DNA of 64,000 bases from positions 256,001 through 320,000 of the forward strand of contig CAWGED010000019.1 of the NCBI GenBank assembly GCA_963821525.1, in the 5' to 3' direction. The DNA is from an uncultured Gemmatimonadales bacterium (GTDB taxonomy: Bacteria; Gemmatimonadota; Gemmatimonadetes; Gemmatimonadales; GWC2-71-9). A program made the translations under genes and the position numbers. Positions within the stretch are counted from its first letter, which is position 1; the number at the start of each line of letters is the position of its first letter. Positions 3,805 through 38,778 of this stretch are shown piece after piece. Under the pieces are notes generated by a model. It was not told the origin of the DNA and did not search any database. It saw only the letters and a program-made list of their open reading frames with translations.

Positions 3805-3930
3805 GGAAGGTAGGCGGGGATGGCGGGAGGGCGGTAGGGCGATCAGGCGGTAGGGGTTGTGGGTGGTGGGTGGTCGATGGTCGATGGTCTTGTGCTTACC
3901 GCCTTACCGCCCTACCGCCTTCCCGTCCAA
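3805..3930. repeat. Inverted 8-mer arrays (GGCGGTAG-type / TTACCGCC-type) enclosing a short TGGTCGA 7-mer array
   Basis: Left GGCGGGAG GGCGGTAG GGCGATCA GGCGGTAG; middle TGGTCGA TGGTCGA TGGTC; right TTACCGCC TTACCGCC CTACCGCC. Confidence 0.7.
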
Positions 3931-5539
3931 CCCCGAAAGACACCCCTCATCCCGCGACACCCGGAATCGAAGCGGAAAGTTCCCCGATTCGGCGCCCACC
4001 CACGTCAAAACCGCGGGGCATTGCTTCCGAACCGCTTCCAGATCCCGAATGATCGGGCTTCCGGGAACTCCCACGACGACCACGCTTATCGAGTCCTCCA
4101 GGATGTGATGGGCCAGGTAGCGGCCCGGCACTTCGAAGGCCGAGGGGAGCACCGCGCTCTCCGCCGGATTGGCCGGCACGGTCTTGCGGCCCGTGTAGAG
4201 GTAGATAGCAGCCGGATAGTCGATGAGGAGGTGATCCTGCTCACCGGTATTCGCCATGACCCAGCGTGAAGCTGAAGCGAGATAGCGGCTGGTGAGTGGC
4301 AGCAGATGACTCGGTGAATAGAACGGGGCGGGCTTGCGATCGGCGAAGGCCGCTGAGCGCCTCGCGATGCACCGTCACCTGTCGAAGAAGTACCAGACCG
4401 GTCGCGAGACCGAGGACGGGAGCGAACCAGCGAGTTCGAACCGCCGGGAGTCGCTCGAAACTGACGCAGGCCGCGAGGCCGAGAAAAGGTAACGCCGAGA
4501 GGAGCAGGCGATCCTGGGCGAAGGGCCATGCCAGGATGACCGCAACACCGCCCAGGGCGGATCCCGCGAGCAACGGATAGCGTCGCAACGCAGCAAGGGC
4601 TCCTCCCAGCAGGACGAGCAGCAGGAGACCGACCAGGACTCGTCCCCCGCTCGCATTCCCGATCAAGTACGGGCCCAGCTGCTCCAGGTACTTCGCCGCA
4701 TTCGAGGCCACGCCTAACACGACCGACTTGAGCGATCCCACGACGCCGGCTCCGGCAAACCATCCCAGGTAGCCACCCTCGTCCGGCAGATCAGCAACGG
4801 GACCGCGATGGACCATGACGACGTGCAGAAGTTTCCACGCGATCAGGGGCCCAAGTGCAGCCACGGTCACGATTGCGCGATGCGCTGCACTTCGTTTCCG
4901 GAGCCAGGCCCCCGCGAGCACCGCGACCACCAGCACGATGGCCTGGGTGCGGAAGAGGGTGGTGACGGAGGCGAGGAGGGCGGAGAGGGCGGTTCGGCGG
5001 TTCGGCGGTTCGGCGGCGATCACACTCGACGGCTCCGCGTGATACCAGCTCACCAGAACTGCGGCCCAGCCCAACATGAACCAGGGTTCCGACAACGGAA
5101 TGGTGAAGTACTGAATCGACGCGTCGAACAGGAGCGGTGCGACCACAAACGCACCGAGGAGAATCCGGGGAATTCCGAATCTTTCGCGTCCAAGCCACCA
5201 GAGCAGTCCCGCGACGGCCCCGATGACAATCGGATGGAGCAGGCTGACCAGACGCTGCACTCCGTCTACCGAACCGGTCAACCGCCACAATAGGGCAAGA
5301 AGAACCGGGAAGCCGGGGGGATACTTCACCTGCACCGGATCACCCACCAGGTGGAGCGAGTGATAGCCGTGGCCTTCGGCCAGCGACTTACCGAGGACGG
5401 TGTAGACCCCGTCGTCATTCCAGGCTCCCACCAGCAACGCGGTGGAAAGGCTGGCGGCGAGATAGATGGTCGCGATCAGCACCCCGGCGAGGAGGGCTTC
5501 GCGACCGGGTGAGGGAGAGATTGATGGCCTTTCAGGCAC
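3904..5539 (-). CDS. Polytopic membrane protein, GT-C fold glycosyltransferase-like; frameshift near 4330-4350
   Basis: WNDDGVY..LGKSLAEG.GY, KYPPGFP.LLA, LSEPWF motifs; ORFs 4241..5581 and 3904..4257 join; probable GTG start 5539. Confidence 0.65.
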
Positions 5540-5591
5540 GGTGGATAATAGCCTTCCCGCCTCTAGGGGCATGGGGTACACTTCCCGCCCT

Positions 5592-8111
5592 ATGCCCTCA
5601 ACAAGACAGCCGCTCGAGGTTCACAAGTTCGGCGGCGCCTCGCTGGCCGACCCAGCGGCGATAAGGCGCGCCATCGCCATTCTCGCCGAGCGGCCGGGAC
5701 GGCGGGTCGTCGTCGTTTCGGCGATGGCCGGGGTCACTGACATGTTGCTGACGGCGGCCGCCAAGGCCCAGCGTGGCGATGTCGCGAGCGCGCTCGAGAC
5801 CGCGGCGTCGCTTCGGGAGCGGCACCGGGCGGCGGCGCGCGCATTGATCCGTACCGGCGTCGAGCGGAATGAGCTGATCGCGTTCATTGACGCACAGAGC
5901 GCGGAACTGGAGGGCCTAGTCCGCGGTCTCGCCATCCTCCGAGAACTCACCGCCCGCACGGCAGACTTCGTGGTTGCCCGGGGTGAGCGTCTCAGCGCGA
6001 GACTCGTCGCCGCAGCTCTTGCCGCAGCCGGCCAGCCGACTCGCTACGTGGACGCCCTCGAAGTGGTCCGCACCGATGGGCATTTCGGGAATGCATCCCC
6101 CGACCTCGAGGCGACGGACAAGGCGATGGCCAAGGCGTTCCGCCCGCTCATCGCCAAAGGGATCACCCCCGTGGTACCCGGCTTCCTCGGCGCCACTCCC
6201 GATGGGGAGGTGGTCACCATGGGGCGTGGAGGCTCGGACCTGACGGCCGCGCTGGTGGGCCGAGCCCTGGGTGCGACGCAGGTGAATCTCTGGAAGGATG
6301 TTCCTGGTCTGTTGACCGCCGATCCCAAGGTGGTGCCGGACGCACGGGTGATGCCCCAGCTCAATGTGAGAGAGGCCGCAGAGCTGGCCTATTACGGCGC
6401 CCGGGTGCTGCATCCGAGAGCGTTGATTCCGATCATCGGACGCAAGCTCCCGATCTGGGTGCGCCCCTTCAGCAATTCAGCCTTCCCGGGCACCGAGGTT
6501 TCCGAGCGGGAAACCGGACTCGAGGTGCCGGTAAAGGCGCTCTCCGGGGCACCGGGCCAGGCGCTGCTCACGGTCGAAGGGAACGGGATGATCGGAGTGC
6601 CGGGTGTCGCGGCACGGACCTTCGCCGCTCTGCAGCGGGAGCGGATTTCCGTCTCGCTCATCTCTCAGGCATCCTCGGAGCATTCGATCTGCCTTACCGT
6701 GCCGCAGGCGAGCGGAGAGCGGGCGAAGCTCTGCCTCGAGGCGGCGTTTCGCGAGGAGATCGCTCACCGGGAGATCGATGGCGTCCAGCTGCACCCGGGG
6801 GTGGCCACGATTGCCGTCGTCGGTCTCGGCATGCACGGGACTCGCGGTGTCGCCGCCCGGGTCTTCTCCGCCCTCTCTGCGGCCGGGATCAACGTGATCG
6901 CGATCGCCCAGGGATCGTCCGAGCTGAATATCTCCGTCGTCGTGGAAGACGCCGATGCGGCGGCGGCACAGCGCGCAATCCACTCGGCGTTCCAACTTTC
7001 GAAGGTGGGAGGCGGCTCCGCGGCCCCGCGCGACCGGATCGATGTCTTTATCCTGGGATTCGGGCAGATCGGACGCGCGCTGGGACAGATGGTCGCGGAT
7101 CTTCCGGAGAGAGGGCCCAGAATCCGGGTAGTCGGTGTCTCGGATCGCAGCGGATACGTATTCGATCCCGAAGGGATCAGCACCCGGCGGCTCGATGCCA
7201 TCGCTCGAGAGAAGCGCAACGGGCATTCTCTGCGCCGGCTCGAAGGCGGGCGGTCTGGCTCCGCGGAGGAAGCGGTCGAAGCGGTGAGCCGTCATGCGCT
7301 GTCACATCCGGTTTTGGTAGATGTGACCGCCGATGATACCGGACCCGCGCTCAAGGCCGCACTCACTCATGGGATGGATCTGGTGCTGGCGAATAAACGG
7401 CCGCTGGCAGCCTCTACCGACGAGGTAGACAAACTGTTCGCCCTGGCGCGCAGTCAGGGCCGGCGGGTGCGCTACGAAGCGACGGTGGGGGCCGGACTGC
7501 CGGTGATGGACACTCTGGCCAAGCTGGTGGAGACTGGCGATTCGATCGTCCGTATCGAAGGCTGCGTCTCGGGAACGCTGGGATTCCTGCTCTCGGGAAT
7601 GGAGCGGGGGCGGCGCTTCTCCGAGATCCTGAGAGAAGCGGTCGTGAAGGGTTACAGCGAACCCGATCCCCGGGATGATCTGTCCGGCGCCGATGTCGCG
7701 CGAAAGGCGCTCATCCTGGGGAGATTGATCGGCTTCCGAGGCGAGCCTCGTGCGGTCGGAGTCGAATCGCTGGTGCCAGCGGCCGCCCGAAGCATGGACC
7801 TCAAATCGTTCCTCGCCCGTCTGGAGAACTGGGATGCGGAGTGGCAGCAGCGCATCGCGGCCGCCCGTTCCCGGGACCGGGTGCTGCGCTACGTGGCGAG
7901 CGTCTCGCCGGAGCGCATTCGCGTGGCCCTGACGCCGGTTCCCCGTGAAGGTCCGTTCGGATCGCTTCAGGGTACCGACAACCAGATCGTGTTCACTACC
8001 GCGCGCTACACCGATCATCCACTGGTGATTCGCGGGCCCGGCGCGGGTCCGGTTGTAACCGCGGCCGGAGTGCTGAACGACATACTCGCGCTTGCTCGAA
8101 GGTCGAGATGA
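5592..8111 (+). CDS. thrA: Bifunctional aspartate kinase / homoserine dehydrogenase
   Basis: VHKFGGASL, GRGGSD, two ACT domains, GFGQIG, YEATVGAGLP, GYSEPDPRDDLSG, GPGAGP..TA. Confidence 0.95.
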   Translation: MPSTRQPLEVHKFGGASLADPAAIRRAIAILAERPGRRVVVVSAMAGVTDMLLTAAAKAQRGDVASALETAASLRERHRAAARALIRTGVERNELIAFIDAQSAELEGLVRGLAILRELTARTADFVVARGERLSARLVAAALAAAGQPTRYVDALEVVRTDGHFGNASPDLEATDKAMAKAFRPLIAKGITPVVPGFLGATPDGEVVTMGRGGSDLTAALVGRALGATQVNLWKDVPGLLTADPKVVPDARVMPQLNVREAAELAYYGARVLHPRALIPIIGRKLPIWVRPFSNSAFPGTEVSERETGLEVPVKALSGAPGQALLTVEGNGMIGVPGVAARTFAALQRERISVSLISQASSEHSICLTVPQASGERAKLCLEAAFREEIAHREIDGVQLHPGVATIAVVGLGMHGTRGVAARVFSALSAAGINVIAIAQGSSELNISVVVEDADAAAAQRAIHSAFQLSKVGGGSAAPRDRIDVFILGFGQIGRALGQMVADLPERGPRIRVVGVSDRSGYVFDPEGISTRRLDAIAREKRNGHSLRRLEGGRSGSAEEAVEAVSRHALSHPVLVDVTADDTGPALKAALTHGMDLVLANKRPLAASTDEVDKLFALARSQGRRVRYEATVGAGLPVMDTLAKLVETGDSIVRIEGCVSGTLGFLLSGMERGRRFSEILREAVVKGYSEPDPRDDLSGADVARKALILGRLIGFRGEPRAVGVESLVPAAARSMDLKSFLARLENWDAEWQQRIAAARSRDRVLRYVASVSPERIRVALTPVPREGPFGSLQGTDNQIVFTTARYTDHPLVIRGPGAGPVVTAAGVLNDILALARRSR

Positions 8112-9058
8112 ACGCGAAAACCGCGGTCCGCGCCTTCGCCCCGGGATCGGTGGGGAATATCGGTCCGGGACTCGACATCATGGGGCTCGCCCTGACCGGC
8201 CCGGGAGATACCGTCGAGGCCAGAGTCGGTGCCGCCCCGGGTGTCACAGTCGCAGACGCCGGTCATCCCGATCTGCCCCTCGACCCGACGCTCAATACCG
8301 CAGCACTTGCCGCGGCTGCCGTGGCCAAGCTCGCCGGAAGGCCCGAGGCATCGATCGAGATCCGAATCCGCAAGGGCCTTCCGCTCTCGGGAGGACAGGG
8401 AGGAAGCGCCGCATCGGCCGTGGCCGGAGCGGTCGCGGCGAACGCGCTGCTGGGTGCCGGTCTGTCTCACCTGGGCCTGCTCGAGGCGGCGCTCGCGGCC
8501 GAAATGGTCGTGGCCGGTACCCATCTCGACAATATCCTCCCGTCCCTGCTCGGCGGCATCGTCCTCGTGCGCGACGAAGCGAGCCGAGACTTCATTCGGC
8601 TCCGAGTGCCCGACCAGCTTCGGGTCGTTCTCGCCCATCCAGCGCAGCAACTCAAGACCAAAGAAGCCCGGTCTGTGCTCCCGGCGTCGCTGTCGCGTGC
8701 CGATGCCCTGTATCAGGCGGCTCAGGTTGCCGCGATGACGGCCGCGTTCGTGAGCGGGGAGCTTGGGCTGCTGCGCCGCGCGGTGGACGATCGCATCGCC
8801 GAGCCGGCAAGGGCGGTGTTGCTACCCGGGTTCAGGGAAGCGAAGGCGGCTGCACTCGGTGCCGGTGCCCTGGGGTGTTCGATCTCGGGGAGTGGTCCGA
8901 CCAGCTTCGCCTTTGCCGACAGCGACCCCCAGGCGGCGCGAGTCGCCCAGGCCATGGCGGACGCGTACCGGAAGGCCGGCGTCGCCTGCTCCACTCGAGT
9001 CGAGCGAATCAGCGTCGAGGGGGCGCGGGTGCTGCACGGGACGGAACCCGGAACATGA
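8108..9058 (+). CDS. thrB: Homoserine kinase
   Basis: PGSVGNIGPGLD, GHMP motif PLSGGQGGSAAS, HLDNI, ISGSGP. Confidence 0.93.
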   Translation: MNAKTAVRAFAPGSVGNIGPGLDIMGLALTGPGDTVEARVGAAPGVTVADAGHPDLPLDPTLNTAALAAAAVAKLAGRPEASIEIRIRKGLPLSGGQGGSAASAVAGAVAANALLGAGLSHLGLLEAALAAEMVVAGTHLDNILPSLLGGIVLVRDEASRDFIRLRVPDQLRVVLAHPAQQLKTKEARSVLPASLSRADALYQAAQVAAMTAAFVSGELGLLRRAVDDRIAEPARAVLLPGFREAKAAALGAGALGCSISGSGPTSFAFADSDPQAARVAQAMADAYRKAGVACSTRVERISVEGARVLHGTEPGT

Positions 9059-10326
9059 CCACCTGGCAGCAGTGCTCGACATGCGGGACCCGCATGAGCG
9101 AGCTGGATCCCCGAGTGCGCTGCGATTGTGGTGGCCTCCTCGAGGTCCACCACGATGCTCCAGCTCTCCGAGCAGCCGAGCTTCGCGCGCTCTTCGACGA
9201 GCGCTGGAACCTGCGGGTGGACGTCAACCTCTCGGGTGTCTGGCGCTATCGAGAGCTGGTCCTGCCGGGCGCGGCACCGCACGCCGTGACCCATCCCGAA
9301 GGGAACACTCCCCTGCTCCGCCGTGCCGCTCTCACGGAGTGGGCCGGGCTCGATGAGCTGCTGCTCAAGCACGAAGGGCACAATCCCACCGGGTCGTTCA
9401 AAGACCGCGGGATGACGGTCGGCGTGACCCAGGCGCGCCGGATCGGCGCTTCCGCCGTAGCGTGCGCCTCGACCGGGAACACCTCTGCCTCTCTCGCGGC
9501 GTACGGGGCACAGGCCGGGATTCCCGCGCTGGTGTTCGTTCCCGCCGGCCAGGTGGCGATGGGCAAACTGGCGCAGTCACTCGCCTACGGAGCGAAGACC
9601 CTCCTGGTCCGCGGCGATTTCGACGCCTGCCTCCGGCTCGCCGAGGAGGCCGGTGCCCGCCTCGGTGTCTATCTCCTGAACTCGATCAATCCATTTCGGG
9701 TCGAAGGGCAGAAGACGATCGTCTTCGAGCTGCTGCATCAGCTGGACTGGGAACCGCCCGACTGGATCGTGCTTCCGGCGGGCAACCTCGGTAACACTGC
9801 GGCATTCGGCAAAGCGCTGGTCGAGGCTCGATCGCTTGGCCTGATAGACCGGCTGCCACGGCTCGCCGCGGTGCAGGCCGCAGGCGCTGCTCCCTTTGCT
9901 CAGGGATTTGCCGAGGGATTCACGACTCGCCACCGGGTCAAGGCGGAGACCGTCGCCACCGCGATCAAGATTGGAGATCCGGCTTCATGGGACCGGGGCG
10001 TCAAATCGATCCGGGAGACGAATGGCGTGGTCATCGCCGTCGAAGATGGGGAAATCCTCGAGGCGAAAGCAGTAATCGACGCGGCGGGTGTCGGCTGCGA
10101 GCCGGCCAGTGCCGCGAGCCTGGCGGGAACCCGGCAACTCGCCGAGCGCGGGATCATTCGGCGCGATGAGCGAGTGGTCGCGGTTCTCACCGGCCACCTG
10201 CTCAAGGATCCAGGGATTCTGCTCGACTATCACCAACGTGATCCTGCACCGCCTGGCGCGAACAGACCGATAGAAATCGAGGCGGATATTCGAGAGGTGG
10301 AGAGGGTGGTGGGGAGTGGGGGGTAG
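9055..10326 (+). CDS. thrC: Threonine synthase
   Basis: EGNTPL, NPTGSFKDRG, CASTGNTSAS, GNLGN; start at ATG 9055 overlapping thrB stop. Confidence 0.95.
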   Translation: MTTWQQCSTCGTRMSELDPRVRCDCGGLLEVHHDAPALRAAELRALFDERWNLRVDVNLSGVWRYRELVLPGAAPHAVTHPEGNTPLLRRAALTEWAGLDELLLKHEGHNPTGSFKDRGMTVGVTQARRIGASAVACASTGNTSASLAAYGAQAGIPALVFVPAGQVAMGKLAQSLAYGAKTLLVRGDFDACLRLAEEAGARLGVYLLNSINPFRVEGQKTIVFELLHQLDWEPPDWIVLPAGNLGNTAAFGKALVEARSLGLIDRLPRLAAVQAAGAAPFAQGFAEGFTTRHRVKAETVATAIKIGDPASWDRGVKSIRETNGVVIAVEDGEILEAKAVIDAAGVGCEPASAASLAGTRQLAERGIIRRDERVVAVLTGHLLKDPGILLDYHQRDPAPPGANRPIEIEADIREVERVVGSGG

Positions 10327-10382
10327 GACGGGAGACGGGAGACGGGAGACGGGAGACGGGAGACGGGAGACGGGAGACGGGA
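10327..10382 (+). repeat. Perfect tandem repeat (GACGGGA)x8
   Basis: 56 bp read directly, beginning immediately after the thrC stop. Confidence 0.97.
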
Positions 10383-10440
10383 GCACCGCGAGGGTACGGC
10401 TACTGCTGCGCAAATAGCCATTGGCTGCGTCCTGGTAGCA

Positions 10441-10489
10441 GCTAATGGCTAATTGCTAACAGCTTATGGCTTACGGCCTACAGCTTATG
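10441..10489 (+). repeat. Degenerate 7-mer array, consensus GCT(A/T)A(T/C)G x7
   Basis: GCTAATG GCTAATT GCTAACA GCTTATG GCTTACG GCCTACA GCTTATG. Confidence 0.8.
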
Positions 10490-11060
10490 GCGTTCCCTTC
10501 ACCGAGTCGACCGCCGCACCCAGCGCGACGTACGCCTGCGGATCCACCTCCTGGAACTCCGCCGCGACGTAACTGATCTTGCCACCCGGAGCGATCACGT
10601 AGAGGGTCCGGTTGTCCAGCTTGTACTTGCTATCGAAGGCCCCGTAGAGCTTGCCGACCTTGCCATCGGGATCGCTCAGGAACCGGAACGGATAGTTGCG
10701 ATCCTTGGCCCACGAGGCGAGCTCGGTGATCGGATCTACACTCACCGCCAGCAGCGTCACCTTTTTTCCATCGTTAAACAGCTTCGCGTACTGATCACGG
10801 TACGCGTCCATTTGGATGGTTCAGCCGCTGGTCCGTGCCTTGTAGAAGAAGGCAATCACCACGGTCTGATCCTTCAGGTCAGTAAGCCGCACCGAATCAG
10901 GCTGAACGCCGTCGCGCGTGGCGCTCTGCAGAGTGAAATCGGGGGCGGGATCGCCCACCTTGAGCGGACCGGATTGCTGAGCCGGCACCACCGACGTCGC
11001 GCCCAGTAGCAATCCTCCTACCAGGAGGAAACGAGTCAAACGGGAATTACGCTCTGCCAT
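10485..11060 (-). CDS. Exported AhpC/TSA (BCP-like) peroxiredoxin-fold selenoprotein, UGA at 10821-10823
   Basis: ORFs 10821..11060 and 10485..10811 are in frame: signal peptide, LKVGDPAPDFTL, FFYKARTSG-UGA-TIQMDAYRD, FLSDPDG, R.LYVI..GKI. Confidence 0.85.
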
Positions 11061-22665: not shown

Positions 22666-22689
22666 GAGGACTGGGGACTGAGGACCGAG
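22666..22689. repeat. Short 7-mer array G(A/G)GGAC(T/C)
   Basis: GAGGACT GGGGACT GAGGACC GAG. Confidence 0.6.
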
Positions 22690-23867: not shown

Positions 23868-23947
23868 TCGATGGTCGATGGTCGATGGTCAATGGTCGAT
23901 TGGAGTAGTCGTTGAAGGACCATCGGACTACCGACTATCGACTATCG
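23868..23947. repeat. Inverted 7-mer arrays (TCGATGG)n ... (GACTATC)n
   Basis: TCGATGG x3 TCAATGG TCGATTG, spacer, GACCATC GGACTACC GACTATC GACTATC. Confidence 0.85.
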
Positions 23948-26291: not shown

Positions 26292-26356
26292 TTAGGCGGC
26301 TAGGGGGTCCGGCCATGTAATTGCCGAGCCGCCGAGCCGCGGTGCCGCCGAGCCGC
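26292..26356. repeat. 8-mer array (GCCGAGCC)n with degenerate inverted partner
   Basis: GCCGAGCC GCCGAGCC GCGGTGCC GCCGAGCC at 26323-26354; GGCGGCTA GGGGGTCC GGCC upstream. Confidence 0.65.
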
Positions 26357-27077: not shown

Positions 27078-27247
27078 GGGTCTTGGGTCGTGAGTCTTGG
27101 GTCTTGGGTCAACGTCTCTAGCGATGTCGCTGGGGGGTGGAGAATCTACTCGGCATCTCAGCTTCAGGCATCCCCCAGAGGCATAGACCCAAGACGTCAT
27201 GGCTCAAGACTCACGACCCACGACCCATGACCCACGACCAACGACCC
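27078..27247. repeat. Inverted 7-mer arrays (GGGTCTT)n ... (ACGACCC)n bracketing a divergent intergenic region
   Basis: Left 27078-27110 GGGTCTT GGGTCGT GAGTCTT GGGTCTT GGGTC; right 27206-27247 AAGACTC ACGACCC ACGACCC ATGACCC ACGACCA ACGACCC. Confidence 0.9.
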
Positions 27248-27261: not shown

Positions 27262-29214
27262 ATGCCCCAACCCATCCGCTTCATCTTCGGACTCCACCTG
27301 CATCAGCCGGTGGGGAATTTCGGGTCCGTCTTCAGCCAGCACTTGGACGAGGTCTACCTGCCCTTCCTGCAGAAGGTGGACGAGCGGGAGTTCTTCCCCC
27401 TGGTGCTCCACATCTCCGGCCCCCTGCTGGAGTGGCTGGAATCGAACGGCAAAGCCTATCTCGATATGGTCGGCCGTCTGGTTGATGCCGGCCGGCTGGA
27501 ATTGCTGTGCGCCGGCATGTACGAACCGGTCCTCGCTGCTCTCCCTCGGCAGGACCGCATCGAGCAGATCGGCTGGATGCGGGAGAAGCTCAGGAAACGG
27601 TTCGGGATCGATGCGCGGGGGCTCTGGCTCACCGAGCGGGTGTGGGAACCGGAGCTTGCTGCCGACTTGGCCGACGCCGGGGTACAGTATGCCCTGGTGG
27701 ATGACCGCCATTTCCTGGTGACCGGGTTTGAGCGAAACCAGCTGCACGCGCCGTGGATGACCGAGAGCGACGGCCGGCGAATCGCCCTGTTCCCGATTGA
27801 CGAGCGGCTCCGCTACCTCATCCCGTTCCGGCCTCCGGCCGAAACCGCCACCTATCTCCGAGAGCTGGCGAACGAAGGTCACCGCATGGCGGTGCTGGCG
27901 GACGACGGGGAGAAGTTCGGCGGCTGGCCCGGCACCCGCGAATGGGTCTACGAGAAGGGATGGCTGGATCAGTTCGTGACCACGATCTCGGCGCTGGTTG
28001 ATAACGGCGAGGTAGTGCTCTCGACCTTCGCCGAGACTCTTCCGGCAGTGCCGATCGCGGGGCTCGCCTACCTGCCAACCGCCTCCTATCGGGAGATGGA
28101 GGGTTGGTCGCTGCCGCCACTCGCGGCGCAGCGGCTCATCAACCTCGAGACCGAGTTGGGAGAGGAGCGGTTGTCGGGACCCGAGAGCGGGCTGCTCCGG
28201 GGCTCGCACTGGCTCAACTTCCTGGTCAAGTACGTCGAGGCCAACCGGATGCACAAGAAGATGCAGGCACTATCCCTGCTCTGCCGCGATCGAGGCGATC
28301 CCGCGGCAGCCCGCGTCGCCATTGGACGGGCCCAGTGCAACGACGCCTACTGGCACGGCGTCTTCGGCGGACTGTATCTCCCCCACCTGCGTGATGTGAT
28401 CTGGCGCGAGCTTGCGATTGCGGAGAGGGCGCTGCGTGTCCGGGAACCGCTGGAAGCCGAGGTCTTCGACATCGACGCGGATGGCCATCGGGAGATCTGG
28501 GTCCACAGCTCCGACTTCAGCGCGATCGTGAGTCCCGACCGTGGCGGAGGCATCGAGGAGTTCACGCTTTTCGGATCGGGGATCAACTTCGCGAACACGC
28601 TGACTCGGCGGAGGGAAGCCTACCACCTGGTAGTCGCGAAGCCAGGAAACCACGGTGAGGGCGACGAAAAAGGGACGCCGAGCATTCACGATCTGGAGAG
28701 CCGCATCCGGCTGAATGAACTGCCGCCGGTTGACGCGCTTCCGCGGGTGTTGCTGCACGAGCGGGGACTCCCGTCGGCGCTGGATCAAGAGAGTTACGAG
28801 CGAGGCGACTTCGACAGCCTGGATGTACCGGGTGACGGTCCCCTTCCCTACACCATCGAATCCTCGGCGGATCGCCTGATGCTGAGCTTCAAACTGGTTG
28901 AGACCGGGATCACGACCTTCGAGAAACACTACAGCTTTGCGCCGGACGGCAGACTCACGGCGACCTACCGCTGGTCGCCGGCCGCCCTCGCACCCGAAGG
29001 ATTGTTTGCCGTGGAAGTGTCGTATCGGGGGCCGCTCGAAATCACCGCCAGCCCGGCCGCAGACACCTGGAGCTTCGACATCACGACGGTGGCGAAATCA
29101 GAGAAGGGACTGGAAGAAACGGTGCAGGGCCGGTCGGTCACGTTCCGGTGGCCCGGCAACGTGGGGAGTGCGATGCTGGAGTTGTTGCCGGCAAGCGGAG
29201 TCGAAAGTCGATAG
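27262..29214 (+). CDS. GH57 4-alpha-glucanotransferase / alpha-amylase
   Basis: HLHQPVGNF, GLWLTERVWEP, DDGEKFGGWPGT, SYREMEGWSLP, AQCNDAYWHGVFGGLYLPHLR. Confidence 0.9.
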   Translation: MPQPIRFIFGLHLHQPVGNFGSVFSQHLDEVYLPFLQKVDEREFFPLVLHISGPLLEWLESNGKAYLDMVGRLVDAGRLELLCAGMYEPVLAALPRQDRIEQIGWMREKLRKRFGIDARGLWLTERVWEPELAADLADAGVQYALVDDRHFLVTGFERNQLHAPWMTESDGRRIALFPIDERLRYLIPFRPPAETATYLRELANEGHRMAVLADDGEKFGGWPGTREWVYEKGWLDQFVTTISALVDNGEVVLSTFAETLPAVPIAGLAYLPTASYREMEGWSLPPLAAQRLINLETELGEERLSGPESGLLRGSHWLNFLVKYVEANRMHKKMQALSLLCRDRGDPAAARVAIGRAQCNDAYWHGVFGGLYLPHLRDVIWRELAIAERALRVREPLEAEVFDIDADGHREIWVHSSDFSAIVSPDRGGGIEEFTLFGSGINFANTLTRRREAYHLVVAKPGNHGEGDEKGTPSIHDLESRIRLNELPPVDALPRVLLHERGLPSALDQESYERGDFDSLDVPGDGPLPYTIESSADRLMLSFKLVETGITTFEKHYSFAPDGRLTATYRWSPAALAPEGLFAVEVSYRGPLEITASPAADTWSFDITTVAKSEKGLEETVQGRSVTFRWPGNVGSAMLELLPASGVESR

Positions 29215-29233
29215 TCGAAAGTCAAAAGACGAT
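29197..29233. repeat. 7-mer array (AGTCGAA)n; left arm of a 28-bp inverted repeat
   Basis: GG AGTCGAA AGTCGAT AGTCGAA AGTCAAA AGACGAT; contains the GH57 stop codon. Confidence 0.88.
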
Positions 29234-29263
29234 TGACACCGACCAGCGACCCTGCTGCCTCAG

Positions 29264-30979
29264 CTACTCGATGAAGTCCACCCAACCGGCTTCATTGGTG
29301 ACGACCGCAACGGTCCCTGCGGCGTTGACTCCGACCCGGCGCGGCGTTCCCCAGTATTGAGCAGAGTCCGCTGCTGTAAGGTTGTCCGGTCGAGAATCTC
29401 GATGGTCGCAAAAGTTTCGACCACGATGAGCTCGTTGGTTGTGACGCCCAGGCCGAAGCCAGGACCGGCCAACGGGACGCTCTTCACCTGCAGGCCCGAA
29501 CTGATGTTCCACACCTGCAGGTAGCCCGACTCGTTGGAGACGTAGAGTTCGGTTCCCGCAGGGGACAGCCCCAGACCCATGGGAGAACCATTTGTCATGT
29601 AGGTGCGGATTATCGTGCGGGTTACCGTGTTCACCTCCACTGCCGTGCCCGCCCCCGCCATGCTCACGTACAGCCGAGGCAACGTGGGATGAACCACCAT
29701 GAAGTTCGCGAAGCTTGCCGGGCAGCGAGTCCGTGAGTTGGTTGGTCGAGGCGTCGGCGAAGTACAGTCTCTCGTTCGTCCCGATGAAAATCGTCTTGTT
29801 GTCTGGGGACACCCCGACGGAGTAGGGGGTACTCCCAAGACCAGTGATTGGAGGAAGAACCAGATTGGTGGCCACATCAATCACCCCAACGGCGCCGTCG
29901 TTGTTCAGGGCTACATAGGCCCGGGTACCCGCGGGTTGATCGCCATGCCAAGTGGGAGGTTCCCCACCGTCACCGGCGATCGGAGAGTGTAGCCCGGGAG
30001 GGTTCCCCGTACGAAGCTCGACGAGTTCAACAGCCCCACGTATGTCTCGCCACCGGGCCCGACGGCGACTCCATAGGGATTTCCGGCGACCGGAGTCGTC
30101 GCTGCCCGGACCCCCTGCATCCCCGTGGTAACGAACACCGGGACCAAAAAGGTGAGACTGCCGCTCTTTGCGTTAAGGCTACCTGTGCCGGTACCGCCGA
30201 TTGAGGTAACCAACCCCGCCGCCGACAGGGAGAAGAGCGAAGGATCATGATTGACGTAGGTTACCGACCGCCGCGCAATTGGATTCCCCAGACTGTCCAG
30301 TACCTCAGACACGAGTTGTTTGGTTCCCCTGGCCGAATCACCACGCTGCTGGGCGTGGTCGGAACGCTCGTGGCAACGAGATAAACGGTGACCGGCACCT
30401 TGATTTGAATGGCGTCCACCACGACGGTGATCGTGGCGGTACCGGTCGGCCCGACGGCGATCACCTCTCCAGGACTGGCTGACTGTTACAACTGATGGCT
30501 TGCTGGACGTGAAGCTGAACAGTCCGACGTTGAAAACGGGATTGCCGAGGAAATCTGTGGCATCAAACGACAGGATCCTGGTGGTGTTCCGGTGCATCTG
30601 AATCGAGGTGGGCGTTACGGTGAGGTGCATCACCCGTTGCCGGACCAGTACCCGAACCGTATGAGTGAGACCATCATCTTCTGCCGTAATGAACGTGCTT
30701 CCCAGCGGCCCCACCGAGGTCATCAGGCCCGTAGCCGTGATGGTGACGACACTTGGGTTGTCGGAAGAGAACCTCACCGACCGGCCGGGGATGGAACGCC
30801 CAGCGGCATCCACTACGGTTCCCGTGAGCTGCAGGGTGAGCCCCCCTGTCGATGACCGGCTGATTGGGAATGAGAATGATGTCAGCTGGCACCCGGACTC
30901 AGGTGCTATCGCCCCCGCAGGACACGCCCAGGGCGAGGAGCGCAAGCAGACACAAGACCGCCCGCGTCGAACGAGTCAT
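29264..30979 (-). pseudogene. Lipoprotein with three Ig-like (Big_2) domains and YVTN-type beta-propeller; nonsense codon plus several frameshifts
   Basis: MTRSTRAVLCLLALLALGVSCGGDST-TGA(30899-30901); FSSDNPSVVTI, SSKPSVVTVS Ig repeats; GNPYGVAV, GSTPYSVGVSPD, GSPMGLGLSP blades in different frames. Confidence 0.7.
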
Positions 30980-31086: not shown

Positions 31087-31182
31087 AGTCGAGAGTCAAA
31101 AAGTCGTGGGTCTTGAGTCTCCCAAACTGAAGACTCAAGACCCACGACTCATGACTTTAGACTACCGACTCTCGACTCCCAA
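31087..31182. repeat. Inverted 7-mer arrays with perfect 19-bp stem
   Basis: AGTCGTGGGTCTTGAGTCT (31102-31120), 10-nt loop, AGACTCAAGACCCACGACT (31131-31149), then TGACTTT AGACTAC CGACTCT CGACTCC. Confidence 0.92.
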
Positions 31183-33352: not shown

Positions 33353-34243
33353 ATGACGAATCCGCTTCCCGCCAAGGTGGTCCTGGGCCTGGTGCAGATG
33401 GCCATGTCGGACGACAAGCCCGACAACATGCGCCGCGCGGTCGCCGGCGTCAGGGAGGCCGCAGCCAAGGGCGCCAAGGTCATCTGTCTGCCCGAGCTGT
33501 TCCTGAGCCGGTACTTCTGCCAGGTCGAGGACCACCGCTTCTTCCAGCTCGCCGAGCCGATTCCGGGACCGAGTACCACCTCGCTCGGCGCCCTGGCCAA
33601 GGAGCTTGGTGTCGTCATCATCGCATCGCTGTTCGAGAAGCGCGCCGAAGGTCTGTATCACAACACCACCGCGATTCTCGATGCCGACGGGAAATACCTC
33701 GGCAAATACCGGAAGATGCACATTCCGGACGACCCCAACTATTACGAGAAGTTCTATTTCACCCCGGGCGATCTCGGTTTCCGCTCCTGGGACACGCAGC
33801 ACGCCAAGGCCGGCGTACTCATTTGCTGGGACCAATGGTACCCCGAGGCCGCAAGGCTCACTGCGCTGACCGGGGCGCAGATCCTCTTCTATCCCACTGC
33901 GATCGGTTGGCTCATTCCCGAAAAGGCGGAGTACGGCGCGGCCCAGCAGGCCTCGTGGGAGACGATCCAGCGAAGCCACGCGATCGCGAACGGCGTCTAC
34001 GTGGTGGCCGTCAACCGGGTCGGCGTTGAGCCGGGGCCCAACCAGGGGATCGAGTTCTGGGGCGGCAGCTTCGTCGCGGCTCCCAACGGCGAGATCATCG
34101 CGAAGGCGGGCACCGGCGAGGAGACGATCGTGGTCGAAGTGGACACTGGTCGAGTCGACGTCGCGCGCACGCACTGGCCGTTTCTGCGGGACCGGAGAGT
34201 CGATGCGTATGGGGGGATGACGAGTCGGTATTTGGATGACTGA
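33353..34243 (+). CDS. aguB: N-carbamoylputrescine amidase (carbon-nitrogen hydrolase)
   Basis: CLPELF..YFCQ, YRKMHIPDDP.YYEKFYFTPGD, ICWDQWYPEAAR, WPFLRDRR. Confidence 0.92.
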   Translation: MTNPLPAKVVLGLVQMAMSDDKPDNMRRAVAGVREAAAKGAKVICLPELFLSRYFCQVEDHRFFQLAEPIPGPSTTSLGALAKELGVVIIASLFEKRAEGLYHNTTAILDADGKYLGKYRKMHIPDDPNYYEKFYFTPGDLGFRSWDTQHAKAGVLICWDQWYPEAARLTALTGAQILFYPTAIGWLIPEKAEYGAAQQASWETIQRSHAIANGVYVVAVNRVGVEPGPNQGIEFWGGSFVAAPNGEIIAKAGTGEETIVVEVDTGRVDVARTHWPFLRDRRVDAYGGMTSRYLDD

Positions 34244-34244
34244 C

Positions 34245-34641
34245 CTATTGCCGATTGCCGATTGCTGATTGCCGATTGCGGCTCACTCGCTCCACACTCT
34301 TTTCCGCAGTTCGACGAGCTGCGATTACGATCGAGAGCAGTTCATTGCCCTCAACTAGAAGCGCCTCAATCCGCTCGCGGGATGCCGATCCGAGATCTCT
34401 GAGCAACTCCAACCAGAAAAGGGTTTCGTCGCATTCCTCAACGACGATACTGAGCTTCGCGACGAACTCGCGCCGGGACCGGGCTCGGCAAACAGCTCGA
34501 TAGTTTGCCCCGACAGACGTTGCCGACCGCGTGAGTTGATCGCAGATGATCTGCGCATTCTCTCGATCGAGGCAGACTGCGACAGACCAACACAACTTGA
34601 AGGGCGAACGCCTTTGTCCGCCGCTTCATTTGAGAGGTCAT
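34245..34641 (-). CDS. Four helix bundle protein (TIGR02436 / 23S rRNA IVS / Avd-like); 1-nt frameshift near 34558
   Basis: MTSQMKRRTKAFALQVV..CRSLP joined to QLTRSATSVGANYRAVCRARSRREFVAKLSIVVEECDETLFWLELL. Confidence 0.9.
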
Positions 34642-34784
34642 CCCGCTTGTGTCAGGCCTGTGATCGAGCTCCATGGCGGGCAAGTTGTGGCATCAGGGTG
34701 GGTGAAACGGCACCCAAATGTTTCATCCACAGCCAAAGGAAACGCCGTACAATCAGCAATCGACAATCGGCAATCGTCAATTTT
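34247..34784. mobile_element. Putative cassette: inverted 7-mer arrays (ATTGCCG)5 / (CAATCGN)5 enclosing a four-helix-bundle gene
   Basis: Left arm 34247-34281, right arm 34750-34784; fills the aguB-aguA gap almost exactly; mobility inferred only. Confidence 0.55.
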
Positions 34785-34785
34785 C

Positions 34786-35873
34786 ATGTCTAACCCGACT
34801 CCGGCTACGCTCGGCTACCAGATGCCGCCAGAATGGTGGCAGCACCGGGGCACCTGGCTGAGCTGGCCTCACAGAGAATCATCGTGGCCCGGGAAGTTCC
34901 AGCCCGTGCCTCATGTCTTCGCCGAGATGGTGCGACTTCTCTCTCCGCACGAGGAAGTGCACATCAACGTCACCGGCCAGGAGATGGAAGACGCGGTACG
35001 GGCAATTCTGGTGGAACATGGCATCGCACCGTCGGCAATTGGCCGAGCCGCGAGCGCCGAGCCGTCGAGCGTTGTTGTTTCCACCACAACCCCACCAACG
35101 ACGCCTGGTGCCGCGACCACGGCCCCTGCTTCATCCAGCGCAACGTGAATGGCCGGCGCGAGGAGGCCATTGTGGACTGGGGGTACAACGCGTGGGGCGG
35201 GAAATATCCGCCGTTCGAAGATGACGACGTGATCCCCACGAAAATCGCCGAGGAGTTTGGGATTCCGGTCTACCACCCGGGCATCGTGATGGAGGGAGGC
35301 AGCCTCGATGTGAACGGAGCGGGGACCCTGCTGACCACCGAATCCTGCCTGCTCAACCCCAACCGCAATCCCTCGCTCACCCGGGAGGAGATCGAGCGTT
35401 ACCTGATGGACTACCTGGGCGTTCGCCACATCCTCTGGCTGGGCGAGGGGATCGTGGGCGACGACACCGATGGCCACGTGGACGACCTGTCTCGGTTCAC
35501 CGATCCCTCCACCATCGTCACCGCGGTGGAAATGGATTCGAGCGACGAGAACTACCGGCCGCTGAAGGAGAACCTCGATCGTCTCCGCGGCATGCGGGAC
35601 CAGGACGGCAATCCCTTCCGAATCGTCACCCTGCCGATGCCGCCGGCGGCGTACTACGAAGGACAACGGCTCCCGGCGAGCTACGCCAACTTCTACATCG
35701 CGAACGGCGTCGTTCTCCTGCCGTCTTACGACCCGACGACCGACGAGATCGCCCGCCAAACCCTGCAGCGCTGCTTCCCGACCCGCCGGGTCACCCTGCT
35801 CGATTCCCGGGACCTGATCTGGGGACTGGGGTCATTTCATTGTGTGACGCAGCAGTGGCCGGGGGTGGGATAG
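34786..35873 (+). CDS. aguA: Agmatine deiminase; frameshift near 35075
   Basis: MPPEW..H.GTWLSWPH, NDAWCRDHGP, MEGGS, DDTDGHVDD, ASYANFYI, GSFHCVTQQ. Confidence 0.93.
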
Positions 35874-35904
35874 GCGAGATCTTGGTGATTGAAGATTGAG
35901 GATT

Positions 35905-36279
35905 TCAGATTGAAGATTTTCGGCTCGCGACCTTCCGCTCGAGCGTCAGCTTTGTCGCGGCTACAATCGCGACAAGCTCGCTGGCCTCTTTCAAAAGCGG
36001 ACTGATAGCCTCGATCTTTGCGACGCCCGACTCCGCCGCCAGTTCGAACCAGAACACCGACTCGTCCGCCTCCTCGAGAACAATCCCAATTTTTGCAGCA
36101 AACTCGCGGCGTGACCTCGCTCGACAGGCGGCACGGTAATTGGCCCCTATCGAGGAAGAGCTCCGTATCAATTGTCCCGCAATGACCCTGCCCTCAACCG
36201 TAGCCGGCAAGGTTCGGCAGAACCGAATCGCACCTGCGGCGAAAGCTCTGGTTCGCCGCTTCATTTCTTCCGGGGTCAC
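35905..36279 (-). CDS. Four helix bundle protein (TIGR02436 / 23S rRNA IVS / Avd-like)
   Basis: MKRRTRAFA, QLIRSSSSIGANYRAACRARSRREFAAKIGIVLEEADESVFWFEL; start GTG 36279 or ATG 36264. Confidence 0.92.
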   Translation of the reverse strand: MTPEEMKRRTRAFAAGAIRFCRTLPATVEGRVIAGQLIRSSSSIGANYRAACRARSRREFAAKIGIVLEEADESVFWFELAAESGVAKIEAISPLLKEASELVAIVAATKLTLERKVASRKSSI

Positions 36280-36320
36280 ACCGAACAATTACCCTGCCCT
36301 GGGCCCGGTAGCCCCGCCAT

Positions 36321-36362
36321 AGAAACGCAAGCCGGGTCCTCCGCACGCGCGAGGAACCCGGC
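36321..36362 (-). terminator. Probable intrinsic terminator of the glutamine synthetase gene
   Basis: GCCGGGTTCCTCGCGCGTGCGGAGGACCCGGC hairpin followed by TTGCGTTTCT on the minus strand. Confidence 0.55.
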
Positions 36363-36427
36363 CCTTACTGTCCAATACTTCTGATTTCAAATCTTCAATC
36401 TGAAATCTTCAATCTGAAATCGCCTCC

Positions 36428-38577
36428 CTACTTCAGAAACAACATCTCCCGATAGGTTGGCATTGGCCACAAACTCGACTCCACGTGCAGCTCGATCGTG
36501 TCGGCCAGGGTGCGGAGGTCGGCCATGGCGGGCTTGACCTTCTCCTTGATCCACTGCGCGTGCTTGATCGGGTCGCCATCCTCGTGAGCGACCGCCTTCT
36601 CCAGGCTGCCCAGTGCTTCCCGGAACCGGGAGACCAGGTTGACGAACTCGCCCAGCGCCTGGTGGGTATCCAGGCACTTGACCCCGGCCGCCTCGGTCAC
36701 CGACACCGCCTGCGCCACCTTCGCCTGATGCTGCAGCGCCGCGGGCAGGATCATCGTGCGCGCCATGGTGATCATGGTCTGCGCCTCGATGTCGATCTGC
36801 TTGACGTACTTCTCGTACGCGATGTGGGTCCGCGAATCGAGCTCGGCCTTGTTCAGGACGCCGTACTTCTTGAACAGGTCCGCGATCTTCTTCTGGCGCA
36901 GGACCGCGAACGCCTCGACCGAGTCCCGGAAGTGCGGCAGGCCGCGCTCCTCGGCCTCATCGTGCCACTCGGCGGAGTAGTTGTCGCCCTCCGAAGATCA
37001 CCCGCTTGTGCTGCCGGATCACCTTCTTGAGCACCGAGAGCACCGCGGCCTGCAGCCGGGCGGGCGTCGGGGTCTTCCCCGCAGCCTTCTCCAGCTCCGT
37101 CGCCATGTAGTCGAGCGATTCGGCGGCGATCGTGTTCAGCACCGTGTTGGGCCAGGCGATGGTCTGGCTCGAGCCCACGGCGCGGAACTCGAACTTGTTC
37201 CCGGTGAAGGCGAAGGGAGAGGTCCGGTTCCGGTCTCCCGAGTGCCGGGGGAGCTGGGGCAGCGTCCGGGCGCCCAGATTCAGCGTCCCGCCCCGGATGG
37301 TGCGCTTGGGCAGGCCCTTCTCGACCTGGTCGCAGGATGTCCTCGAGCATGTCGCCCAGGAACATCGAGATGATCGCCGGAGGCGCCTCGTTGGCGCCCA
37401 GACGGTGATCGTTCGGCGCCGAGGCGATCGAGGCCCGCAGCAGATCGGCATGGAGATCCACGCGCCCGGATCACGGCGCAGAGGAACACCAGGAACTGCA
37501 TGTTGGTGTGGGTCTCATCCTGCGGGTCGAGGAGGTTCACCCCGGTATCGGTCGCCATCGACCAGTTGTTGTGCTTGCCCGATCCATTGACGCCGGCGAA
37601 CGGCTTCTCGTGCAGCAGAGCCGCGAGGCCGTGCCGCTCCGCCACCCGCTTCAGCGTCTCCATCATGAGCATCTGATGGTCGCTCGCGATCTGGCTCATT
37701 TCGAACAGCGGAGCAATCTCGTACTGCGCGCGGGGCCACCTCGTTGTGCCGGGTCTTGACCGGCACTCCCAGGCGATAGAGCTCCCGCTCGCAGTCGGCC
37801 ATGCAGGCCAGAACGCGCTGGGGGATCACCCCGAAGTACTGGTCCTCGAGCTGCTGACCCTTGGGAGGCCGGGCGCCGAAGAGGGTCCGCTCGCAGGTGA
37901 GCAGATCAGGCCGCTGGAAGAAGTACTCCCGGTCGATCAGGAAGTACTCCTGCTCCGGGCCCACCGTGGTGTAGACCTTGGTGACCCCCTCGTCGTTGCC
38001 GAAGATCTTCAGGATCCGGAGCGCCTGCTTGGAGAGCGCCTCCATCGAGCGGAGCAGCGGGATCTTGGTGTCCAGCGCCTCGCCGGTCCAGGAAACGAAC
38101 GCGGTGGGGATCACCAGGGTCGTGGCGCCGTTCGCCCCGCATGAGAAACGCCGGGCTGGTAACATCCCACGCCGTGTAGCCGCGGGCCTCGAAGGTGGCC
38201 CGAAGGCCGCCCGACGGAAAACTCGAGGCGTCCGGCTCGCCCTGTACCAGCTCCGATCCCGAGAAGTTGTAGATCACCCCGCCCTGCCCGTCGGGCTGAA
38301 CCAGCGAATCGTGCTTCTCCGCGGTCAGCCCGGTCAGCGGCTGGAACCAGTGAGTAAAGTGCGTGGCGCCATTCTCGATGGCCCAGTCCTTCATGGCCGA
38401 AGCGACGACATCGGCCACCTTGGGATCGAGCGGCTCGCCCCGATCGATGGTCCGCAGCAGACTCCGGAAGACATCCTTGGGGAGGCGCTGGCGCATGACG
38501 TCACGGGAGAAGACGTCGGCGCTGAAGATGGTGTCAATGCGGACGGGCGTACCGTTGGAAACGGCAGGAATCGTCAC
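36428..38577 (-). CDS. glnN: Glutamine synthetase type III; about five frameshifts
   Basis: [100 protein letters not shown] across fragments. Confidence 0.92.
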
Positions 38578-38778
38578 CGGATCGAAGCCTCAAGCTGGGG
38601 TTGCGCGGAGGTGCGGCTGACGCGGCGGGAAATTAATGAGGAGTCAGGCGGATGGTAGGGCGCCGGGGATTCGCGGCCAGGCGGATCGACGGCTCGGCAA
38701 AGCTAAACGGCTCCAGACGAGATCGGGCCCGGCGCTTTTCGATCCGCCGAGCCAACCAGCCGCTGAGCCGTGCTAGGA

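What the first reader, a model, noticed from the sequence alone, without database searches (positions are those of the whole stretch)
3805..38775. Window-wide family of site-specific 7/8-mer arrays, mostly in inverted pairs, tied to four-helix-bundle genes
Seen: at least ten loci carry short tandem arrays (3805-3930, 10327-10382, 10441-10489, 22666-22689, 23868-23947, 26292-26356, 27078-27247, 29197-29233, 31087-31182, 34247/34750, 35884/36389; weakly 38645-38775). The unit usually differs between loci (GACGGGA, TCGATGG, GGGTCTT, AGTCGAA, ATTGCCG, GATTGAA, GGCGGTAG, GCCGAGCC) but the period is always 7 or 8, and at most loci the two arms are reverse complements. Arrays abut start or stop codons and several supply the stop. 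Established: heptamer STRR repeats are known in cyanobacteria; four-helix-bundle proteins occur in IR-flanked 23S rRNA intervening sequences and are related to Avd, the RNA-binding partner of DGR reverse transcriptases. Inference: a single system that writes or maintains locally matched periodic RNA stems, with empty versions (hairpin only) and filled versions (hairpin plus cargo gene), the four-helix-bundle protein being the candidate trans factor. I am not aware of a description of this.
Basis: partly seen in the sequence, partly recalled or inferred. Interest (0 to 1): 0.85.

Follow-up and report, generated by a model that had tools for sequence, protein, structure and literature searches.

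The report
Heptamer repeats matched to four-helix proteins
Hundreds of mirror-image runs of 7-8-base repeats fill the gaps between genes of this soil bacterium, and the repeat's core sequence follows the family branch of a small ring-type protein whose genes sit between such runs, so the protein likely recognises them, which would explain a long-unexplained class of bacterial repeats.

Summary
The arrays are real: 739 period-7/8 arrays genome-wide against 1 in shuffled DNA. About half have an inverted partner, with the G-rich arm first. All 13 distinct TIGR02436 four-helix-bundle (FHB) loci lie between matched arms. One junction is filled, empty or absent in different relatives.

This scan has reported the gene-plus-arms cassette before on other DNA (248 earlier notes hold my search words). 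Units are a conserved 3-4-base core plus variable spacer bases, and core and period follow the protein clade. Homologues of one window protein in at least eight phyla carry ATT-core arms (47 of 55, against 1 of 58 for other clades). Gene-less arrays use their own genome's FHB units, and FHB-less relatives lack arrays.

The layout resembles REP/RAYT, but the protein is an Avd-like basic pentamer-type fold with no evident catalytic site. Binding is inferred, not shown, and how arrays reach new sites is unresolved. Nine literature searches found no description of the link.

The parts
3817..3852 (+). G-rich 8-mer arm (CGG-core family), just before the start of TIGR03546 gene 3280-3801(-)
   Evidence: pairs with 3895-3925, z -7.8
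3854..3889 (+). nested unpaired 7-mer run (GGGTGGT grading into TGGTCGA) in the loop
3895..3925 (+). complementary C-rich 8-mer arm (CTTACCGC)
4988..5016 (+).
10327..10383 (+). unpaired GACGGGA x8 directly after the thrC stop; 7-11 copies in congeners, another unit in G004
10404..10491 (+). AGC-family hairpin and array ending at the stop of peroxiredoxin-like ORF 10485-10811(-)
   Evidence: z -3.65
22666..22689 (+). GAGGACT arm; its partner arm is absent here but present in G001-G004
23868..23947 (+). gene-less GTC-core hairpin; both arms carry another GTC unit in G001-G003; an FHB cassette sits upstream of the same gene in G021; genes overlap without any element in G008
   Evidence: (L011)
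26292..26356 (+). weak CGG-family pair (clear arm 26323-26356); absent in G002
   Evidence: z -1.1
27078..27247 (+). gene-less GTC-core hairpin (GGGTCTT / GACCCAC) between divergent genes
29197..29232 (+). orphan GTC arm at the GH57 gene end; in G002-G004 it is the left arm of one hairpin with the 31087 site
31087..31182 (+). gene-less GTC-core hairpin
   Evidence: z -9.0
34244..34279 (+). ATT-core arm (GATTGCC) after the aguB-like stop; holds the FHB1 stop codon
34245..34595 (-). FHB1, TIGR02436/PF05635 gene antisense between aguB-like and aguA-like genes; 5' end out of frame in this assembly, and short-read contigs differ by single-base indels there
34749..34781 (+). complementary arm, ending 6 nt before an ATG at the likely aguA-like start
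35042..35071 (+). GCCGAGC-type array inside the aguA-like gene, at a stretch with assembly indels
35884..35918 (+). ATT-core arm (GATTGAA/GATTTCA); holds the FHB2 stop codon
35905..36288 (-). FHB2, intact TIGR02436 gene (likely start near 36270), four helices, 2RLD/2GSC/bAvd fold, dN/dS about 0.1
36389..36421 (+). complementary arm abutting the stop of the GSIII-type gene
38690..38775 (+). degenerate CGG-family pair, clearer in G003/G004
   Evidence: z -1.65

Best explanation
The arrays are a dispersed repeat family whose core sequence and period follow the clade of the neighbouring TIGR02436 protein, and they are most likely rows of binding sites that this predicted pentameric ring recognises, probably on the G-rich arm of nascent RNA at gene ends.

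Shown: each unit is a conserved 3-4-base core plus 2-3 variable bases; arms hold about 4-5 units; each FHB gene sits between inverted arms of its cognate family; gene-less copies use the same families; junctions persist while units turn over.

Inferred: (1) one ring covers one arm, about one core per subunit. (2) Because the G-rich arm comes first on either strand, a transcript would present the site before its complement, so binding would compete with hairpin closure next to the following gene's start or at the 3' end. (3) Slippage supplies unit variants and recognition filters them, which keeps core and period fixed. (4) Cassettes are swapped at junctions by host recombination and lose the ORF by deletion, leaving empty hairpins served in trans.

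It works like REP/RAYT, with a non-catalytic binder in place of a transposase. How new sites are seeded is the weakest step.
For: Flanking: 13 of 13 distinct G000 FHB loci have matched arms by inspection; 66 of 91 loci with full flanks in this order pass score 14 on both arms.

Clade and unit: the tree groups them together. A Mantel test on pairs sharing neither flank nor genus gives rho 0.165, reached by 0 of 1000 permutations; the nearest protein predicts period class in 54 of 66.

Prospective test 1: FHB2 homologues (45-58% identity) from at least eight phylum-level groups have paired arms in 55 of 76 loci (control windows 1 of 66), with an ATT core in 47 of 55 against 1 of 58 for other clades. 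Prospective test 2: homologues of a CGG-clade protein have period 8-10 in 33 of 44, CGG in 33 of 44 and ATT in 0 of 44.

Core constraint: ATT positions vary 1-4% against 12-26% at spacer positions.

Trans pattern: 314 of 714 gene-less G000 arrays match own-genome FHB arms (null 6%); 527 of 714 match the genus pool (null 15%); the same holds in G007, G011, G014, G023 and G026. Array density against FHB count gives rho 0.65 over 19 genomes; five FHB-less genomes give 0, 0, 0, 0 and 3 GC-only arrays in 305 kb. ATT arrays (>=5 hits) occur in 7 of 8 genomes with the ATT-clade gene and 1 of 32 without it (G018 left out).

Protein: dN/dS about 0.06-0.35; median pI 10; fold matches the five-chain entries 2RLD and 2GSC and bAvd 4DWL. 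All five Avd protomers contact one RNA stem-loop (10.1101/2023.10.23.563531, section read).

Placement: 223 of 733 arrays start within 12 nt of a stop (random intergenic 5.6%), 176 of them G-rich on the mRNA strand; only 20 of 222 hairpins lie in divergent spacers, against 482 of 2538 spacers.
Against: No binding or expression data exist: the one RNA run laid was contigs only and did not cover the FHB genes.

Nothing marks the RNA strand: sense duplexes are more stable in 40 of 98 and antisense in 54, and there is no bias in 66 or 55 cassettes. DNA binding fits equally well.

Exceptions: G031 (8 FHB genes) and G014 (6) have almost no arrays in 60-80 kb samples; G011 has an ATT-clade gene but no GATT 7-mer hits; G013 has 8 hits without the gene (90% complete); 25 of 91 loci fail the arm cut-off. 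The Mantel rho is modest. Kin are not independent, and includes near-duplicate contigs of unknown taxonomy.

Co-inheritance of gene and arms explains part of the clade signal. Selection for binding alone does not explain how about 500 clusters were seeded. Gene calls come from my own simple caller.
Confidence: 0.5

Rival explanations
1. A DNA-level mobile system: the arms are repeated DNA-binding sites at element ends, FHB recruits a host recombinase or polymerase, and the gene-less hairpins are MITE/REPIN-like copies moved in trans.
For: Fixed arm polarity (first arm G>C in 95 of 121); no strand bias; filled, empty and absent alleles; high or saturated dS between FHB genes at one junction suggests replacement; clear presence/absence at a few sites, e.g. 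both sides of a tRNA gene in G004; close parallel to cognate REP classes and 'orthoswitch' (PMC3686654, passages). All clade-unit evidence fits this as well.
Against: Loops are not copies of each other: only 6 of 130 have a non-periodic homologue. Sites are stable: arrays are kept at 48 of 53 and 56 of 68 orthologous sites. No target duplication was seen by eye. Only Q, N and E are invariant in 71 proteins, with no recognisable catalytic motif. One phage hit in 50,697 records.
Confidence: 0.27
2. Neutral microsatellites: polymerase slippage makes 7-mers, template switching copies one arm to the other, and FHB genes are passengers inherited with their arms.
For: Copy number varies freely between congeners; heptamer excess is a known genomic oddity (PMC4692102 introduction); slippage and quasi-palindrome correction are established processes (recalled).
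Against: The core is kept across phyla while whole units change between genomes 90-95% alike; variant order is not mirrored between arms (83 higher, 91 lower, p 0.70); FHB-less genomes lack arrays; polarity and period by clade are unexplained.
Confidence: 0.1
3. mRNA-borne intervening sequences: the arms form an RNase III stem that cuts the cassette out of operon transcripts, as in 23S rRNA IVSs.
For: The Coxiella IVS has the same protein family and tandem GACAGAT heptamers at its RNase III-cut stem (PMC4990558, passages); stems of about 30 bp fold well.
Against: RNase III was not found with two models in 8 genomes of this order, 6 of them 98-100% complete; here the ORF faces its 3' neighbour head-on (13 of 13 in G000; 45 of 53 called elsewhere in the order), whereas the IVS ORF is sense; about half the arrays have no partner.
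Confidence: 0.07
4. An RNA-templated writer: FHB partners a reverse transcriptase, as Avd does, and adds periodic units in place.
For: Fold similarity to Avd; both arms change unit around a conserved loop; a unit absent from G000 occurs at three G004 sites and around a G004 FHB gene.
Against: PF00078 was found in only 7 of 41 genomes and not in array-rich G000, G001, G003, G004, G011 or G022; no template locus was seen.
Confidence: 0.06

Closest known systems
REP/REPIN-RAYT systems (PMC3686654, passages read; PMC3116915 and PMC3337134, search listing only)
   Same: Gene flanked by inverted cognate repeats; hundreds of gene-less inverted doublets between genes; several paralogues each with its own repeat class; class switches at orthologous genes; repeats scarce where the gene is missing.
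   Different: The protein is a four-helix bundle, not an HUH tyrosine transposase; arms are tandem 7-10-mers, not single GTAG-tagged palindromes; loops are unique rather than copied.
ORF-bearing 23S rRNA intervening sequences (S23p/PF05635; PMC4990558, passages read)
   Same: Same protein family in the loop of an inverted repeat of about 30 bp; tandem heptamers in the Coxiella stem.
   Different: Here the elements lie between protein genes, are mostly antisense, mostly gene-less, and RNase III was not found; the paper notes the heptamers but makes no genome-wide link in the passages I saw.
Intergenic heptamer repeats: GGGAATC of Xanthomonas/Nostoc (PMC4692102; abstract, introduction, passages and a supplement search read) and TAACTGA of Beggiatoaceae (PMC4679880; abstract and passages read); cyanobacterial STRR (recalled)
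   Same: Period 7, about four units, intergenic, near stop/start codons, often convergent pairs, scarce between divergent genes. Supplement file 2 row 27 lists a GGGAATC array overlapping the start of XCC0516, the gene of structure 2GSC.
   Different: Described as one unit per organism and read as G-quadruplexes or unknown regulator sites; term searches found no mention of helix-bundle or S23 genes. Here about ten core families coexist, many unable to form G4.
Avd of diversity-generating retroelements (10.1101/2023.10.23.563531, passages and section 8 read; PMC10053308, passages)
   Same: Basic pentameric four-helix barrel (TMq 0.75 to 4DWL) that binds an RNA stem-loop with all five protomers.
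   Different: No reverse transcriptase or template/variable repeat pair seen beside these genes.
TRAP attenuation protein (recalled, no call)
   Same: Ring protein reading repeated short cores with variable spacers on RNA and competing with a hairpin.
   Different: Unrelated fold, 11 subunits, a few target operons; an analogy only.

Membership tests
TIGR02436 / PF05635 four-helix-bundle proteins | HMM score above the curated cut-off | tested here: met
   69.9 and 73.2 bits against 24; PF05635 51.9 and 49.3 against 33.8
TIGR02436 / PF05635 four-helix-bundle proteins | four-helix fold like 2GSC/2RLD | tested here: met
   pLDDT 97.7, four helices; TMq 0.77-0.80
TIGR02436 / PF05635 four-helix-bundle proteins | homopentamer | not tested
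   inferred from five-chain homologues and PMC4990558
23S rRNA IVS | inserted in an rRNA gene | tested here: not met
   neighbours are protein genes; no Rfam hit in the window
23S rRNA IVS | terminal inverted repeat forming a stem of about 30 bp around an S23p ORF | tested here: met
23S rRNA IVS | excision by RNase III | tested here: inconclusive
   enzyme not found in 8 genomes searched; no raw RNA reads to map cuts
REP/REPIN-RAYT | cognate gene encodes an HUH Y1 transposase | tested here: not met
   the flanked genes are TIGR02436; the four PF01797 genes have other, non-periodic palindromes
REP/REPIN-RAYT | repeat is a tagged palindrome copied with its spacer | tested here: not met
   tandem 7/8-mers; 6 of 130 loops have a non-periodic homologue
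REP/REPIN-RAYT | repeat class tracks presence of the cognate gene | tested here: met
Diversity-generating retroelement | reverse transcriptase with template and variable repeats | tested here: not met
   no PF00078 in G000 (81% complete) or in G001, G011, G022 (98-100%)
Intergenic heptamer SSRs (GGGAATC/TAACTGA/STRR kind) | over-represented period-7 arrays, intergenic, about four units | tested here: met
   (median 4.3 units; 112 of 733 mostly inside called genes)

The most novel reading that the evidence does not exclude
TIGR02436 proteins are a widespread family of ring-shaped, sequence-specific readers of periodic nucleic-acid repeats, with a decodable clade-to-core-and-period code. They maintain and help spread their own arrays at hundreds of gene junctions without a transposase or reverse transcriptase. 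They are the missing cause of the bacterial heptamer-repeat excess, with rRNA IVSs and DGR Avd as offshoots.
Probability: 0.35. Interest if true: 0.88.

Novelty: new variant of a known kind. Interest (0 to 1): 0.74.

Why it matters
Two old open questions meet here: why many bacterial genomes are full of 7-base tandem repeats, and what the S23p/TIGR02436 protein family does. The clade-to-core code turns both into one simple binding experiment with explicit predictions (ATT-core 7-mers for one clade, CGG-core 8-10-mers for another). If it holds, it defines a REP/RAYT-like system run by a non-enzymatic ring protein, suggests where DGR Avd and ORF-bearing rRNA IVSs came from, and offers a set of small orthogonal repeat-binding proteins.

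Tried and rejected
Base-calling artefact: rejected.

Long loops as general cargo: of 32 pairs with loops of 200 nt or more, 10 hold FHB genes; the rest hold unrelated ordinary genes or look like chance pairings, so no second cargo family was seen.

Mirror copying of arms: no signal. G-U / strand asymmetry: no support in three sets, and a weak opposite trend in gene-less hairpins (p 0.037). RT and RNase III: not found. Rfam: no hit. Target-site duplication: none seen by eye in 5 + 12 sites lacking arrays, several of which are only degenerate. Phage carriage: 1 weak record.

Expression: RNA run X15 holds a small share of the stretch as contigs; its lack of cover over the FHB genes is not evidence. 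Arm-to-arm joints have short sides and probably come from other loci or organisms, so they were not used.

Head-on orientation outside this order: a crude longest-ORF call gave 31 same-strand, 6 head-on and 18 unclear, so the bias may be lineage-specific.

The tree is the quick tree (92 rows, 103 columns), used for display only; the statistics use pairwise identity. The 53% identity split was chosen after seeing the data; unsplit counts are quoted. No complex prediction was run.

Literature: nine searches found no paper linking this protein family to genome-wide heptamer arrays. The library lacks most subscription papers, and bioRxiv supplements were closed.
Full report
OBSERVATION. The window lies in G000 (4.33 Mb, 81% complete). 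A 96%-identical homologue of FHB2 comes from a record titled Gemmatimonadales. A periodicity scan finds 622 period-7 and 121 period-8 arrays against 1 and 0 after shuffling; 739 arrays fall into 130 unit classes and about 519 clusters. This is a lower bound. Inverted pairs are enriched (139 against 19+-4) and direct pairs hardly (33 against 20); the first arm is G-rich in 95 of 121 pairs. 51% of 733 arrays have a partner within 1.5 kb (null 1%), with loops mostly under 200 nt and a second group at 400-700 nt. In the window, 10327, 22666 and 29197 are unpaired, and 26292 and 38645 are weak. Contigs of public soil runs and four congeneric assemblies exclude a base-calling artefact.

LINK TO THE GENE. 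G000 has 14 TIGR02436 copies at 13 distinct loci. All lie between inverted arms of one unit family. Across the order, 66 of 91 loci with full flanks pass a two-arm cut-off. The genes are under purifying selection (dN/dS about 0.06-0.35) and basic (median pI 10). FHB2 folds as a four-helix bundle matching 2RLD, 2GSC and bAvd. Only Q, N and E are invariant among 71 proteins.

JUNCTION HISTORY. The aguB-aguA junction (34247/34750) is filled in G000, G004 and G011. It is an empty ATT-core hairpin in G002 and G003, and has no spacer in the FHB-less G008 and G009. At 23868 both arms carry different GTC-core units in G001-G003; an FHB cassette sits upstream of the same gene in G021. Over 400 kb each of G003 and G004, 53 site comparisons gave 24 same unit, 24 other unit and 5 none. 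The reverse mapping kept arrays at 56 of 68 sites. Sites therefore persist and units turn over, usually within a family and often around a conserved loop. Loops are not copies: apart from 19 that hold a nested REP-like family, 6 of 130 have a homologue. Variant order is not mirrored between arms, so the arms pair because they use the same family, not because one was copied from the other.

THE CODE. Units are a fixed core plus free bases: ATT positions vary 1-4% and spacer positions 12-26% in G000 and in other phyla. Protein clades carry unit families (quick tree). Excluding shared junctions and same-genus pairs, protein identity still predicts unit similarity (rho 0.165, 0 of 1000 permutations). 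Two predictions were then tested on new data. FHB2 homologues from at least eight phylum-level groups had paired arms in 55 of 76 loci (control 1 of 66) and an ATT core in 47 of 55, against 1 of 58 for other clades. Homologues of a CGG-clade protein from metagenome contigs had paired arms in 44 of 59, period 8-10 in 33 of 44 and no ATT core (taxonomy unknown, some near-duplicates). A 3-4-base non-coding core is unlikely to survive about 50% protein divergence by hitch-hiking when whole units change between genomes 90-95% alike. I infer recognition by the protein or a tightly co-evolving partner.

ACTION IN TRANS. Gene-less arrays use the host's own FHB units: 314 of 714 in G000 (null 6%), 527 of 714 against the genus pool (null 15%), and likewise in five other genera. 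Density tracks FHB number (rho 0.65, 19 genomes, 20-80 kb samples except G000). Five FHB-less genomes gave 0, 0, 0, 0 and 3 GC-only arrays; G031 and G014 are FHB-rich but array-poor exceptions. ATT arrays reach 5 or more hits in 7 of 8 genomes with the ATT-clade gene and 1 of 32 without it (G018 left out). Kin are not independent, so these are patterns, not probabilities.

RNA OR DNA. For RNA: 223 of 733 arrays start within 12 nt of a stop (5.6% expected), 176 of them G-rich on the mRNA strand; divergent spacers are under-used; Avd binds an RNA stem-loop with all five protomers. Against a selected RNA stem: no strand or G-U advantage and no RNase III found in 8 genomes. Against an RT writer: RT in only 7 of 41 genomes and in none of six array-rich ones. 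FHB genes face their 3' neighbour head-on in 13 of 13 G000 loci and 45 of 53 called elsewhere in the order, but apparently not in other phyla (crude call). No RNA reads could test expression.

MECHANISM. I commit to the following. Each FHB ring reads about 4-5 cores of its family, most likely on the G-rich arm of nascent RNA, in competition with hairpin closure at gene ends. Slippage makes variants and recognition filters them. Cassettes are exchanged by host recombination and decay to empty hairpins. The architecture, the code and the trans pattern are shown; the pentamer, the binding, the substrate, the effect on expression and the seeding of new sites are inferred. Confidence 0.5. A DNA-level mobile version of the same code is the main rival (0.27).

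KNOWN WORK. Heptamer arrays of this placement are published (PMC4692102, PMC4679880) without a link to this family in the passages searched. The supplement of the first lists one array overlapping the start of XCC0516, the gene of structure 2GSC. The Coxiella IVS has the protein and heptamers in its stem. REP/RAYT shows the same population logic. The element fails membership of IVS (location), REP/RAYT (enzyme, repeat type) and DGR (RT). Nine searches found no description of the link; subscription papers are largely missing from the library. This scan has noted the cassette on other DNA many times. Three look-ups for the clade-to-unit code or unit switching found no note with all the words. 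TRAP, STRR and template switching are recalled, not checked.

VERDICT. A real, widespread and apparently undescribed protein-cognate repeat system: a new variant of the REP/RAYT kind of arrangement with a different protein and repeat. The mechanism is unproven but directly testable. Interest 0.74.

Noticed in passing
G000 genome-wide, e.g. C19:454953-455191: A second, non-periodic palindrome family (REP-like, about 65 motif hits) nests inside 19 of 149 hairpin loops, whatever the unit.
   Followed up: partly
G000 C12:49440, C12:7145, C1:35924, C19:590173: Four PF01797 (RAYT/IS200-like) genes with their own flanking palindromes.
   Followed up: partly
G000, G001, G009, G011, G022, G025, G026, G027: RNase III not found with TIGR02191 and/or PF00636 in any of 8 genomes of this order, six of them 98-100% complete.
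   Followed up: partly
window 29260-30945: An Ig-domain gene sits between two GTC-core elements in G000 and G001; G002-G004 have a single hairpin there, as if the gene entered at the array. The ORFs at 3935-5581 show a similar pattern against G001/G004.
   Followed up: partly
window 34329, 34556, 34678, 35050-35077, 36301, 36986, 37330, 37464: Single-base indels against short-read contigs; the split aguA-like and GSIII-type ORFs are probably assembly errors.
   Followed up: partly
G000 C9:1-3000 and C4:412000-418000: The same locus occurs twice at 94.5% identity, probably strain mixture in the assembly.
   Followed up: yes
G000, 36 arrays well inside called genes, e.g. window 4988-5016: 21 of the 36 are 8-mers, mostly CGG-family; some may be tolerated in frame, some are probably gene-calling errors.
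   Followed up: no
G004 stretch L184-L203, offset about 296766: ATT-core hairpins on both sides of a tRNA gene, absent from G000.
   Followed up: no
G031 loci L018, L079, L084, L089; G035 L015: One FHB clade has weak or non-periodic inverted flanks, and G031 has almost no arrays: a possible escape from the system.
   Followed up: no
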